28,480 bases of DNA from contig SHMW01000056.1 of NCBI GenBank assembly GCA_008080735.1, positions 1 through 28,480 of the forward strand, read 5' to 3'. Shown in pieces: positions 2,403 to 11,115 of this stretch. A program made the position numbers and the translations under genes. Within the stretch, counting starts at the first letter, position 1, and each line of letters opens with the position of its first letter. The notes beneath the pieces are model-generated. The model saw only the letters and a list, made by a program, of their open reading frames with translations, was not told the DNA's origin and did not search any database. This stretch comes from Promethearchaeota archaeon (lineage in GTDB: Archaea; Asgardarchaeota; Lokiarchaeia; Sigyniarchaeales; SOKP01).

Positions 2403-2505
2403 GCAGATGTAGTCTAGCCCGGTAAGGCGCTGGCCTCGAGAGCTGAATAAGCCAAGTAAGCCAGTGTGCGTAACGCATGCGGGGGTTCGAATCCCTCCAT
2501 CTGCG
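2403..2505 (+). tRNA. tRNA-Ser(CGA) with 18-nt intron at canonical position 37/38 (2441-2458)
   Basis: Acceptor stem GCAGATG/CATCTGC, discriminator G, anticodon stem CTGGC/GCCAG, anticodon CGA at 2437-2439, long variable arm, T arm GGGGG-TTCGAAT-CCCTC. Intron AGCTGAATAAGCCAAGTA forms a relaxed BHB. CCA not encoded. Confidence 0.93.
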
Positions 2506-9708: not shown

Positions 9709-10641
9709 ATGTCTATTGATTGGCAAAAAGCTGAGGAGCGTCCCGATAAGGCTCAGAAAGTTGATGGAAAGGCTCTTTTAGACTTACGAGCAAAAATCAA
9801 CGACTTAGAAAAACAATTAGCTGAGAAGAAAACAAATTTAAGCCAAACAGATGAAAATCTAAGCTCAACCCAAAGCGAGTTGGAAGAGACGAAAAATACC
9901 CTAGAGGCTACCAAGAATGACTTAGAGCAAACGAAACAATCATCTGAAGCAAAAATAACGGAACTTACCTCTTCACTAAAACAAAAAGACCAAAAGATTA
10001 ATGAGCTAAACTCACAAGTTAGTGAACTAAATCAAAAAATTGAAGATTATAACCAGCAAGTCGGAGATCTGGAGGAAAAACTTAATCAATTATCTGAGAT
10101 GTCTCAGAGTTCCCAAGAAAAAGTTTCAAGTCTCGAGTCTCAATTGGCTGAGACCCAAAAACAATTAGAACAAGCAAACCAAACAATCCAAACTAAAGAT
10201 GAAAAAATATCTTCCCTTGAAGCACAAGTTGAACAATTGAGTTCTGAACTCGATACTACCAAAAGAGCCAACACCACTATGGAAACGGAACTTGCAGAAG
10301 TCAGAGAAACACTCGCAGCAACTGAGGCAGAAAAATCAGAATTATTAGAAGCCGTTGAGGAACAAAAAGAAGCTATTAATGCTCAAGGAACCAAAATTGA
10401 GGAACTTGAAGCGGAGTTGAGTGAATACAAGCCTCCTGAAATTGGCTCGGGAGGATTTGATGCCGAGGAGAGAATCACATGTCCAATGTGCGGAGCTGTA
10501 GGACAAGATATCAAAACAGTTGAGGACAAGTCCAAAGTATTATCATATGTTGGCCACATACCCATGTATGCAAAAACTGTTTTCTAACTCAGAAAACAAT
10601 TGTATAAACATGTGTGTAAAAAATGTGGCTATGAGTTTTAA
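9709..10641 (+). CDS. Long coiled-coil protein with C-terminal Zn-ribbon, interrupted by a 30-nt intron: join(9709..10575,10606..10641), 300 aa
   Basis: About 220 aa of heptad-rich E/Q/K/L sequence, then CPMCG...EDKSKVLSYVGHIPMYAK. After the insertion the same frame reads KHVCKKCGYEF*, supplying the second CxxC. Confidence 0.8.
10576..10605 (+). other. Candidate BHB (tRNA-splicing-endonuclease type) intron in mRNA
   Basis: Sequence ACTGTTTTCTAACTCAGAAAACAATTGTAT. Internal 8-bp hairpin TGTTTTCT/AGAAAACA, central 4-bp helix GCAA/TTGT, 3-nt bulges AA^A and AT^A. Contains an in-frame TAA. Confidence 0.72.
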
Positions 10642-10649
10642 CTAAACCA

Positions 10650-10672
10650 TTTTTTTCAATCTTTTCTTTTTT
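10650..10672 (+). terminator. Oligo-T archaeal terminator
   Basis: TTTTTTTCAATCTTTTCTTTTTT directly after the TAA at 10639-10641, which supports that as the real gene end. Confidence 0.55.
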
Positions 10673-10695
10673 GTGTGGAACAAATCCTTTAAAAC

Positions 10696-11115
10696 TTACT
10701 TATAATTTCTAGAAAAATTGGGGTAAATTCTATTAAATTCTTTTTTTCTTAAAAAATCCCCTTTTTGGACGCATTTTTCATGTTTCCTTAAATGTATATA
10801 ATTTCTATAATCCTTTAGTATATTTTTTATTAAATTCCAATCAGTGTAGGTACGAATTTCATCTGAATATATCTTGGAATTTTTCATAAAAAATTCAATC
10901 ATTTCACGAAAGGTTACATATTGCCATTTTTTCTTCCTATCATTGGTTATTTGTAAAGGAATAACAGTTTTTTCTTTAAGCCATATAGAAAGCAAATATT
11001 CTAACATGATCCCAATTTTAATACAAGCATCTTTCCAAGAACCGTTTTCTACAATCCCGTCCAATTCTTTACATTTATTAAGTAAAATCTCTCTTTTTAT
11101 TGGGTTTTTTCTTTC
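10696..11115 (-). pseudogene. Probably 5'-truncated HEPN-like (DUF4145/Abi-like) gene
   Basis: ACIKIGIMLEYLL helix and LKDYRNYIH (RN..H) motif. The frame is open upstream of TTG 11064 (ERKNPIKREILLNKCKE) with no ATG, and overlaps the tail of the upstream gene remnant. Confidence 0.5.

What the first reader, a model, noticed from the sequence alone, without database searches (positions are those of the whole stretch)
10552..10641. Candidate bulge-helix-bulge intron inside a protein-coding gene: splicing would complete a Zn-ribbon
Seen: the ORF stops at ...HIPMYAK-TVF* with only one CxxC (CPMC). The same frame resumes with KHVCKKCGYEF*, followed by the oligo-T terminator. The intervening 30 nt (10576-10605) fold as inner stem TGTTTTCT/AGAAAACA (loop AACTC, one C.A mismatch at its base), central 4-bp helix GCAA(10570-73)/TTGT(10600-03), and 3-nt bulges AA^A (10574-76) and AT^A (10604-06). 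Exon-exon pairing adds ATGT/ACAT plus ACATAC/GTGTGT, or alternatively GCCACAT/ATGTGGC(10623-29). Cutting after the second nucleotide of each bulge removes exactly 30 nt and the TAA, giving MYAK|KHVCKKCGYEF (300 aa). Established: archaeal EndA cuts BHBs at those positions and RtcB ligates; the well-known archaeal mRNA example is crenarchaeal cbf5. Inference: this is an EndA/RtcB-spliced mRNA in a probable Asgard archaeon, in an unrelated gene. The unspliced form would lack half its Zn ligands, so splicing could act as a switch, conceptually like HAC1/XBP1 non-spliceosomal splicing. Caveat: the BHB is relaxed, and a competing 7-bp helix TATGCAA/TTGTATA is possible.
Basis: partly seen in the sequence, partly recalled or inferred. 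Interest (0 to 1): 0.93.

Follow-up and report, generated by a model that had tools for sequence, protein, structure and literature searches.

The report
tRNA-type mini-intron in Asgard protein gene
A 30-base hairpin carrying a stop codon interrupts the zinc-binding tail of a coiled-coil protein gene in a Loki-type Asgard archaeon. It has the shape cut by the tRNA-splicing enzyme, and comparison with relatives shows it must be removed from the mRNA, a kind of splicing published for only one archaeal coding gene (cbf5).

Summary
Window 10576-10605 is a 30-nt insert with an in-frame TAA.

- **Junction:** about 120 orthologues in Promethearchaeota (Asgard) genomes lack the insert and read exactly the predicted junction, ...HIPMYAK|KHVCKKCGYEF*.
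- **Alleles at this site:** seven other loci carry an intron here, five of them from metagenomes, giving six different sequences of 29, 30 or 31 nt. All keep a 4-bp central helix, A-rich 3-nt bulges, an 8-9-bp inner stem and a 5-nt loop. Compensatory changes include one between exon (GCA to GCG) and intron (TTGT to TCGT).
- **Other sites:** two more 30-nt, stop-carrying introns of the same build sit at two other positions of the same zinc ribbon in other genera.
- **Selection:** exons downstream of the stops are under strong purifying selection.
- **Enzymes:** the genome encodes two EndA paralogues and two RtcB.
- **Other genes:** inserts of the same architecture split other conserved genes here, for example the AMP phosphorylase motif DKHST|GG.

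No RNA data were available, so splicing itself is inferred. The 3' bulge is relaxed, and the regulatory "switch" idea has no support.

This scan had already noted such mini-introns on other Asgard DNA and in this genome. I found no publication reporting them.

The parts
9709..10575 (+). Exon 1: coiled-coil rod plus the first half of the Zn ribbon (CPMC), ending ...HIPMYAK
   Evidence: ORF list and translation. Orthologues are colinear up to this point.
10551..10558 (+). Distal exon-exon helix, 5' strand (UGGCCACA). It pairs with 10624-10631.
   Evidence: Minimum-energy fold. Changes in L045 and L047 on the partner strand are wobble-compatible (C10629 to U).
10563..10567 (+). Proximal exon-exon helix, 5' strand (CAUGU). 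It pairs with ACAUG at 10608-10612. It is displaced from the ideal BHB register by A10568 and U10569 on one strand and A10607 on the other.
   Evidence: Pair probabilities are 0.65-0.99.
10570..10573 (+). Central helix H, exon strand (GCAA)
   Evidence: It pairs 4/4 with 10600-03. In L048 the exon reads GCGA and the intron TCGU, a compensatory exon-intron change. In L047 the intron strand is UUGC, which is all Watson-Crick.
10574..10576 (+). 5' bulge AA^A. The predicted cut is after 10575.
   Evidence: The bulge is AA^N in all ten intron-bearing alleles at three sites. The cut position reproduces the orthologue junction.
10576..10605 (+). Intron, 30 nt, with in-frame TAA at 10585-87
   Evidence: It is absent from about 120 orthologues. 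It is present in G006 and in 5 metagenome contigs as variants of 29-31 nt.
10578..10598 (+). Inner hairpin h': an 8-bp stem (10578-85/10591-98) with the 5-nt loop AACUC (10586-90)
   Evidence: Four stem pairs are changed on both sides in L045. Six of nine pairs show double changes across alleles.
10600..10603 (+). Central helix H, intron strand (UUGU)
10604..10606 (+). 3' bulge AU^A. The predicted cut is after 10605. In this allele A10604 and U10605 can instead pair with U10569 and A10568.
   Evidence: 2.9 kcal/mol to open. The competing pairs are not conserved in L045, L047 or L048.
10606..10641 (+). Exon 2: KHVCKKCGYEF plus the TAA stop, which is the second CxxC of the Zn ribbon
   Evidence: It is identical or near-identical in all orthologues. 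Against L045, L047 and L048 it shows 3-7 synonymous and 0-1 non-synonymous differences.
10650..10656 (+). T7 run after the stop codon, a likely archaeal terminator signal
   Evidence: Sequence

Best explanation
Window 10576-10605 is a tRNA-type (bulge-helix-bulge) mini-intron in the pre-mRNA of a 300-aa coiled-coil/zinc-ribbon protein of a Promethearchaeia (Lokiarchaeia-type Asgard) archaeon.

**Shown**
- The gene is colinear with intron-less orthologues only if exactly these 30 nt are removed.
- The RNA around them forms a conserved, covarying structure. It has a 4-bp helix between exon GCAA and intron UUGU, an A-rich 3-nt bulge on each strand, an inner 8-bp stem with a 5-nt loop, and exon-exon helices outside.

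**Inferred**
- The host's two-subunit splicing endonuclease (EndA) cuts after the second nucleotide of each bulge, that is after 10575 and after 10605.
- RtcB joins the exons.
- The spliced mRNA encodes ...HIPMYAK-KHVCKKCGYEF with a complete four-cysteine ribbon, and a 30-nt intron is released.
- Any unspliced transcript would give a 292-aa product lacking the second CxxC.

The intron is one of a set of equally built ~30-nt introns. Their layout is 1 nt, a 9-nt strand, a 5-nt loop, a 9-nt strand, a 4-nt helix strand and 2 nt. They occupy three sites of this domain in different genera, and also other conserved genes of this genome.
For: 1. **Junction.** The orthologues I translated, from 37 intron-less loci of the same order, read HIPMYAKK[HNR]VCKKCGYEF without a stop and are exactly 30 nt shorter. 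Motif spacing puts about 118 of 127 loci as intron-less at this site.
2. **More alleles at this site.** These are G006 (identical intron) and five metagenome contigs. Intron lengths are 29, 30 and 31 nt, so read-through or an in-frame coding insert cannot explain them.
3. **Structure.** The central helix is 4/4 paired in all site-B and site-C alleles, the 5' bulge is always AA^N, and the loop is always 5 nt. On the alignment 86.9% of cells are paired, against 30-61% when partners are slid. Seven pairs have changes on both sides, against 2.6 in shuffles (0 of 500 reach it). This includes exon GCA to GCG with intron UUGU to UCGU.
4. **Two further sites.** 30-nt stop-carrying introns of the same layout lie at CP|MC (G007, G064) and HIP|MY (G149, G098) of the same domain. 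Both split a codon, so removal must be exact to the nucleotide.
5. **Selection on exons behind the stops.** At site A there are 22.5 synonymous and 7.5 non-synonymous differences in 40 codons. At site B the figures are 6 and 1.
6. **Nucleotide conservation.** Positions 10546-10641 are 97-100% identical between G000, G006 and L044, while the rest of the gene is 70-80% identical.
7. **Enzymes.** The genome has two EndA paralogues, consistent with the broad-specificity alpha-beta type, and two RtcB.
8. **Same genome, other genes.** A scan for this architecture with at least 50 open codons on both sides found 6 hits at L = 30 against 1.0 expected. One splits DKHST|GGVPGNK of AMP phosphorylase. Relatives carry a stop-containing insert in the same stretch in at least five other genera, and 18 other copies in relatives lack it.
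9. **A real tRNA intron nearby.** The tRNA-Ser intron in the same window has the same order of modules.
10. **Cut rule.** Cutting between the 2nd and 3rd bulge nucleotide is the rule stated for cbf5 introns (PMC2738675).
Against: - There is no RNA evidence. The one metatranscriptome offered held nothing, so cleavage, ligation and efficiency are inferred.
- The motif is relaxed in this allele.
  - C10577 and A10599 are mismatched at the base of the inner stem.
  - The outer helix is out of register by 1-2 nt.
  - The minimum-energy fold closes the 3' bulge to 2 nt (6-bp helix, favoured by 2.9 kcal/mol).
- The site-A introns have only 2 of 4 central pairs.
- Only six distinct sequences support the covariation at this site, and three of them are near-identical.
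- The 100% identical block could reflect recent recombination rather than structural constraint.
Confidence: 0.82

Rival explanations
1. The gene is decaying or truncated. A small hairpin insertion introduced a stop, nothing removes it, and the cell makes only the 292-aa protein with half a zinc ribbon.
For: Unspliced reading gives a long ORF that ends 10 nt into the insert. Most relatives have paralogues of this gene family, so loss of one copy might be tolerated.
Against: The 11 codons behind the stop are perfectly kept in all alleles, with 3-7 synonymous and 0-1 non-synonymous differences. At site A, 40 codons behind the stop show 22.5 synonymous and 7.5 non-synonymous differences. The insert keeps its helices through compensatory changes over saturated synonymous divergence. 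The same architecture interrupts the catalytic motif of AMP phosphorylase in several genera.
Confidence: 0.05
2. Translational bypassing (T4 gene 60-like hop). The ribosome takes off at Lys AAA 10573-75, skips the hairpin and lands on AAA 10606-08.
For: Matching AAA codons flank the insert, and a hairpin with a stop lies just downstream of the take-off codon.
Against: A hop would give MYAK-HVC, one Lys short of the invariant YAKK of orthologues. At sites A and B the insert splits a codon (CCA A|..|TG), and no matching CCN landing codon lies at the 3' end. The conserved pairing of 4 exon nt with intron nt 25-28, and the BHB geometry, have no role in bypassing.
Confidence: 0.03
3. RNA-level removal does occur, but by something other than EndA/RtcB. 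Candidates are another nuclease-ligase pair, or DNA-level excision in part of the population.
For: The 3' bulge and outer helix depart from the canonical motif. No enzyme assay exists for any Asgard EndA (bioRxiv 10.64898/2026.10.13.758758).
Against: The cut sites inferred from orthologues fall exactly where BHB geometry puts them, at three independent sites. 30 nt is far too small for group I or II self-splicing, and no Rfam family matches. No direct repeats flank the insert. DNA contigs from three studies all carry it, and none shows a joint across it. Relaxed motifs are the norm for alpha-beta-type EndA substrates, including cbf5 (PMC2738675).
Confidence: 0.06
4. The gene is split, or the stop is read through. 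Exon 2 would be translated separately from the in-frame TTG at 10600-02, or the TAA would be read through to give a 310-aa protein.
For: In this allele the insert is a multiple of 3, and the frame stays open apart from one TAA. An in-frame TTG precedes exon 2.
Against: Alleles of 29 and 31 nt shift the frame. The insert's peptide is not conserved, but its base pairs are. A free 13-residue peptide is an implausible zinc-ribbon half. Inserts in other genes carry two or three stops.
Confidence: 0.03

Closest known systems
BHB intron of the cbf5 (pseudouridine synthase) pre-mRNA in Desulfurococcales and Sulfolobales (Watanabe 2002; Yokobori 2009, PMC2738675)
   Same: It is a short intron inside an archaeal coding sequence, with a relaxed ('unconventional') BHB. 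The cuts are predicted between the 2nd and 3rd bulge nucleotide. The host has a hetero-oligomeric EndA. Presence among relatives is patchy, with gain and loss.
   Different: The phylum differs (Promethearchaeota/Asgard, not Thermoproteota), and the gene is unrelated. There are three alternative sites in one 70-residue domain. The module is strikingly uniform at ~30 nt (9-bp stem, 5-nt loop) and is shared with inserts in other genes of the genome. Splicing of cbf5 was shown by cDNA and enzyme assays. Here it is only inferred.
[quoted passage not shown]
   Same: The motif is the same: a 4-bp helix, two 3-nt bulges, and part of the motif built from exon sequence. The enzymes are presumably the same. 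The tRNA-Ser intron at window 2403-2505 has the same order of modules.
   Different: The substrate is an mRNA. The exon half of the motif is made of codons, so synonymous sites are frozen. The papers I read on Asgard tRNA introns do not mention protein-gene introns.
HAC1/XBP1 unconventional mRNA splicing (Ire1 plus tRNA ligase/RtcB)
   Same: Both are non-spliceosomal. An endonuclease cuts a small structured intron in an mRNA, a tRNA-type ligase joins the ends, and the C-terminus of the protein changes.
   Different: The nuclease (Ire1) and the motif (twin stem-loops with 7-nt loops) are different, and that splicing is stress-regulated. No Ire1 nuclease domain was found here, although that search was uninformative. 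Nothing indicates regulation.
EndA-dependent processing of a 5' UTR in Haloferax volcanii mRNA (Schwarz 2020, PMC7714728)
   Same: It is an mRNA that serves as a substrate of the archaeal splicing endonuclease.
   Different: That site lies in an untranslated region, not inside a reading frame. I know it from the abstract listing and from a note of this scan, and did not read it in full.

Membership tests
Archaeal BHB (EndA/RtcB-spliced) intron | A central 4-bp helix flanked by a 3-nt bulge on each strand | tested here: met
   GCAA/UUGU pairs 4/4, with bulges AAA and AUA. The helix is conserved 4/4 in all six site-C sequences, with one compensatory exon-intron change. Caveat: in this allele two extra A-U pairs can shrink the 3' bulge to 2 nt. 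Those pairs are not conserved in the other alleles.
Archaeal BHB (EndA/RtcB-spliced) intron | Flanking helices h (exon-exon) and h' (intron) directly abutting the bulges (strict hBHBh') | tested here: inconclusive
   h' is present (8 bp after one C.A mismatch). h is present (CAUGU/ACAUG, then GGCCACA/UGUGGCU) but is offset by 1-2 unpaired nt. This makes it a relaxed HBh'-like motif. The site-A intron of G007 has both helices in exact register but a weak H.
Archaeal BHB (EndA/RtcB-spliced) intron | Cuts after the 2nd nucleotide of each bulge give the functional junction | tested here: met
   Cuts after 10575 and 10605 give MYAK|KHVC, identical to the intron-less orthologues. The same rule restores CPMC at site A, HIPMY at site B, and DKHSTGG in AMP phosphorylase.
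Archaeal BHB (EndA/RtcB-spliced) intron | The host encodes the splicing endonuclease and an RtcB-type ligase | tested here: met
   There are two PF01974 hits (103.7 and 68 bits) and two PF01139 hits (570 and 556 bits) in G000.
Archaeal BHB (EndA/RtcB-spliced) intron | The intron is actually excised and the exons ligated in RNA | not testable with these tools
cbf5-type archaeal pre-mRNA intron | Location in cbf5 at the catalytic Asp codon, in Desulfurococcales or Sulfolobales | tested here: not met
   The host gene is a coiled-coil/Zn-ribbon protein with no Pfam family above threshold. The relatives are Promethearchaeota. It works like a cbf5 intron but is not a member of that orthologous intron.
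HAC1/XBP1-type Ire1-spliced intron | Twin stem-loops with conserved 7-nt loops cut by Ire1, and regulated splicing | tested here: not met
   The cut sites lie in 3-nt bulges of one continuous helix, not in 7-nt hairpin loops. No PF06479 match was found in G000, but the control genomes were also silent, so that part is uninformative.
Programmed translational bypass (gene 60-like) | Matched take-off and landing codons around a non-coding gap, giving a product without the gap | tested here: not met
   AAA/AAA exists at site C, but the product would lack one conserved Lys. Sites A and B split a codon and have no matching landing codon.

The most novel reading that the evidence does not exclude
The 30-nt unit is a mobile mini-intron family of Promethearchaeia. 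Its layout is 1 nt, a 9-nt strand, a 5-nt loop, a 9-nt strand, 4 nt that pair with the exon, and 2 nt. On this reading it enters mRNA-coding DNA wherever four exon bases plus 'AA' can complete a BHB. It would do so by reversal of the EndA/RtcB reaction followed by reverse transcription, or by recombination between lineages. That would explain several observations:
- three sites lie within 70 codons of one gene;
- the same site is occupied in non-sister host clades;
- a 100%-identical 96-nt block surrounds the intron in otherwise 70-80% identical genes;
- equally built inserts lie in other conserved genes.

If so, Asgard archaea would splice many protein-coding messages with the tRNA machinery.
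Probability: 0.35. Interest if true: 0.92.

Novelty: new member of a known kind. Interest (0 to 1): 0.82.

Why it matters
In the papers I could search, splicing inside an archaeal coding sequence by the tRNA endonuclease and ligase is documented for one gene only, cbf5 of Crenarchaeota. Finding it in Promethearchaeota, the archaeal group closest to eukaryotes, matters for three reasons.

- **Scale.** The intron sits at three sites of one gene and in other conserved genes of the same genome. If it is spliced, interrupted protein genes and obligatory mRNA splicing are part of Asgard gene expression.
- **Annotation.** Gene callers truncate or split such genes. Here they give a 292-aa product instead of 300 aa, with half a zinc ribbon.
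- **Testability.** It offers a concrete system with a 90-nt substrate and two EndA genes. That system can address how protein-dependent introns spread, and how splicing competes with coupled transcription and translation.

Tried and rejected
- **RNA evidence.** One metatranscriptome (X6) shared a few words with the gene but laid nothing, so there is no information on expression or splicing.
- **Loose genome-wide scans.** Scans requiring H >= 3/4 and stem >= 7/9 were swamped by chance matches, for example 62 observed against 47 expected at L = 30. Frameshifting lengths gave about 70,000 coding-compatible positions each. Only the strict version was usable, and it cannot see introns near gene ends such as this one.
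- **tRNA finder.** ARAGORN finds no tRNA in the window although Rfam does.
- **Protein families.** Pfam on the whole protein gives only coiled-coil noise. The C-terminal domain gives only sub-threshold zinc-ribbon hits.
- **Ire1.** The nuclease-domain search found nothing, but its controls were silent too.
- **Host-gene tree.** On 160 residues the tree is too weakly resolved, and L045 too short, to tell gain from loss or to show transfer. It shows only that same-site introns are not monophyletic.
- **Dispersed repeat.** Rejected, because the hairpin core is unique in the genome at up to 3 mismatches.
- **Common origin of the three sites.** Sequence similarity between the introns of sites A, B and C is limited to short AT-rich words. 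I did not accept it as evidence of common origin.
- **Literature.** Four searches found no report of BHB introns in Asgard protein-coding genes.
Full report
**1. The observation**

The ORF 9709-10587 (+) encodes a long coiled coil followed by CPMCG...HIPMYAKTVF, and stops at TAA 10585-87. The same frame continues with LRKQLYKHVCKKCGYEF to TAA 10639-41, and a T7 run follows.

- the inner stem 10578-85/10591-98 with loop AACUC;
- the C10577/A10599 mismatch;
- the central helix GCAA/UUGU;
- the bulges AAA and AUA.

The stretch 10540-10650 folds better than all 200 dinucleotide shuffles (-27.1 kcal/mol, z = -3.4). The minimum-energy fold adds A10568-U10605 and U10569-A10604, giving a 6-bp helix and a 2-nt bulge. 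Opening them costs about 2.9 kcal/mol.

**2. Is it an insert?**

A six-frame search of 41 and then 154 related genomes with the C-terminal 86 residues gave a clear answer. The orthologues I translated read ...VLSYVGHIPMYAKK[H/N/R]VCKKCGYEF* without a stop, and their match is exactly 30 nt shorter. Removing 10576-10605 reproduces this junction letter for letter.

The only other register that gives the same mRNA is 10577-10606. It does not fit a 4-bp central helix.

The insert is not an assembly artefact:
- a DNA contig of run X1 covers 10319-10760 without a difference;
- a depth-32 contig of an unrelated freshwater-sediment study (the organism of G006) carries it;
- five contigs of other metagenome projects carry it too.

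It is not a dispersed repeat.

**3. More alleles at the same site**

G006, of the same genus, has the identical intron. A pattern scan of metagenome contigs, using the two exon borders and a 26-40-nt gap, returned five loci:
- **L044 and L046:** single-base variants of the window's intron.
- **L045:** 30 nt. Four stem pairs are changed on both sides, and the stop is now the last intron codon.
- **L047:** 29 nt. One stem nucleotide is missing, and the helix strand is UUGC.
- **L048:** 31 nt. The stem sequence is entirely different.

The 29-nt and 31-nt alleles shift the frame, so read-through or a coding insert is excluded. The exon-2 frame is restored only by excision.

In L048 the exon codon GCA has become GCG and the intron strand UUGU has become UCGU. 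This is a compensatory change between exon and intron within the central helix.

On the MAFFT alignment, which puts L048 out of register and so undercounts, the results were as follows:
- 86.9% of cells pair, against 30-61% with slid partners;
- 7 pairs have changes on both sides, against a shuffled mean of 2.6 (0 of 500 shuffles reach it).

The two competing A-U pairs of the window allele are not conserved in L045, L047 or L048. This favours the 4-bp helix with open bulges over the 6-bp helix.

**4. Two further sites in the same domain**

Four other genomes carry a 30-nt, stop-containing insert elsewhere in the same zinc ribbon:
- at CP|MC in G007 (genus g2) and G064 (g11);
- at HIP|MY in G149 (g2) and G098 (g11).

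Both sites split a codon (CCA A|..|TG).

Numbered from the orthologue-defined 5' border, all ten introns share one layout:

| Intron nt | Element |
|---|---|
| 1 | third base of a bulge that is always AA^N |
| 2-10 and 16-24 | an imperfect 9-position stem |
| 11-15 | a 5-nt loop |
| 25-28 | pair with the four exon bases lying 2 nt upstream of the 5' border |
| 29-30 | start of the second bulge |

- **Site B:** the central helix is 4/4 (UUCC/GGAA or GGGA), and two stem pairs are compensatory (G-C and A-U).
- **Site A:** the outer and inner helices are in exact BHB register around a 7x7 internal loop, but only 2 of 4 central pairs form.

The borders were fixed by protein alignment, not by the motif. 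Their agreement with BHB geometry at three sites is therefore independent evidence.

**5. The downstream exons are translated**

Pairwise counts of differences behind the in-frame stops:

| Comparison | Codons | Synonymous | Non-synonymous |
|---|---|---|---|
| Site A, two alleles | 40 | 22.5 | 7.5 |
| Site B, two alleles | 14 | 6 | 1 |
| Site C, window against L045, L047 and L048 | 11 | 3-7 | 0-1 |

At site A the proportions are pS 0.95 and pN 0.08. This is not how sequence behind a real stop evolves.

**6. Nucleotide-level constraint**

Between G000 and G006, and between G000 and L044, the gene shows this pattern:

| Region | Identity |
|---|---|
| Coiled coil | ~70% |
| First part of the ribbon | ~80% |
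| 10546-10575, intron, and exon 2 | 97-100% |

Intron-less orthologues vary freely at the same synonymous sites. Either the exon half of the structure freezes these sites, or the block was recently exchanged. I cannot tell which.

**7. Host and machinery**

Named relatives of the gene are Promethearchaeota/Promethearchaeia MAGs, that is Lokiarchaeia-type Asgard archaea. The nearest is in the same genus.

G000 has two EndA catalytic-domain genes and two RtcB genes. Two EndA paralogues are what a 2026 preprint reads as the (alpha-beta)2, broad-specificity architecture in most Asgard genomes (10.64898/2026.10.13.758758).

The window's own tRNA-Ser(CGA) gene (2403-2505) has an 18-nt intron at 37/38. 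Its modules follow the same order: 1 nt, a 3-bp stem with a 5-nt loop, a 4-nt helix strand (3 of 4 paired) and 2 nt.

**8. Same genome, other genes**

I scanned both strands of G000 with three requirements:
- a central helix of 4/4 and at most one stem mismatch;
- at least 50 open codons on each side after removal;
- a stop inside the removed piece.

At L = 30 there are 6 hits where 1.0 is expected from the genome-wide rate of the motif. Three of them restore continuous, recognisable proteins:
- AMP phosphorylase, DKHST|GGVPGNK, where the insert carries three stops;
- a thiolase-like enzyme;
- a MoxR-like AAA ATPase.

For AMP phosphorylase, relatives of at least five other genera carry a stop-containing insert in the same stretch. 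G005 and G006 have frameshifting ones, and 18 other copies in relatives have none. A conserved metabolic enzyme interrupted in its catalytic motif across genera is hard to explain without splicing.

Notes of this scan had already listed such candidates in this genome and in others. I used them as leads only, and the scan above is motif-based and independent of them.

**9. Distribution**

About 5% of the sampled orthologues carry an intron. On a tree of the last 160 residues, same-site introns do not group. Site A lies in a g11 clade and a g2 clade, and so does site B. Close intron-less neighbours exist, such as G096 next to G064. The tree is too weak to separate repeated loss from transfer or regain.

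**10. Mechanism and rivals**

The best explanation is excision by EndA at 10575/76 and 10605/06 and ligation by RtcB.

The rivals fare as follows:
- **Bypassing.** It fits only site C, and there it would drop a conserved Lys.
- **Read-through or a split gene.** These fail on the 29/31-nt alleles and on base-pair rather than peptide conservation.
- **Pseudogene.** It fails on exon-2 selection and covariation.
- **Self-splicing.** It is excluded by size, and no Rfam family matches.

Nothing links the intron to regulation, and most orthologues lack it. It is true that in a cell with coupled transcription and translation the unspliced fraction would yield a protein without the second CxxC.

**11. 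Comparison with what is known**

The closest case is the cbf5 pre-mRNA intron of Desulfurococcales and Sulfolobales. It too has a relaxed BHB, the same cut rule and a patchy distribution (PMC2738675). That paper states that no other archaeal pre-mRNA splicing had been confirmed.

The papers I read on Asgard tRNA introns do not mention protein genes. Four full-text searches found no report of BHB introns in Asgard coding genes.

I file this as a new member of a known kind, with two unusual traits: the fixed ~30-nt build, and multiple sites in one domain.

Noticed in passing
window 2403-2505 (+): This is a tRNA-Ser(CGA) gene with an 18-nt intron at 37/38 and a long variable arm. Rfam finds it (47.4 bits) but ARAGORN reports no tRNA in the window. 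Its intron has the same module order as the mRNA intron (3-bp stem, 5-nt loop, 4-nt helix strand, 2 nt).
   Followed up: partly
window 10546-10660: A block of about 96-115 nt is 97-100% identical between G000, G006 and metagenome contig L044. It covers the end of exon 1, the intron, exon 2 and the start of the 3' UTR. The rest of the gene is 70-80% identical. This could be structural constraint or a recent recombination tract.
   Followed up: partly
G000 C49:14395 (-), C11:35446 (-), C18:6924 (-) (loci L133, L134, L135): Three more 30-nt stop-carrying inserts of identical architecture lie in AMP phosphorylase (DKHST|GG), a thiolase-like gene and a MoxR-like AAA ATPase. For the AMP phosphorylase gene, relatives in at least five other genera carry a stop-containing insert in the same stretch.
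   Followed up: partly
L016, L043 (site A); L024, L042 (site B): Sites A and B both lie at CCAA|TGT, and every 5' splice site, including the window's, is preceded by AA. This may be a target preference, or simply what a BHB needs from the exon.
   Followed up: no
window 10606-10639, runs X1, X2, X4: Several DNA contigs of other organisms match only the 34 nt of exon 2. They diverge exactly at 10606, with ...YGK or ...YAK codons directly upstream. These are intron-less homologues in the same samples.
   Followed up: no
G000 C10:27830-29137 and C1:51843-53150; C72:1034-1273 and C37:9578-9826: The genome holds two full-length RtcB genes and two EndA paralogues.
   Followed up: no
window 9709-10641 and relatives: The coiled-coil/Zn-ribbon gene family is present in all 41 relatives first searched. 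Most of them give several matches, including short Zn-ribbon-only forms. No Pfam family covers the ribbon.
   Followed up: no
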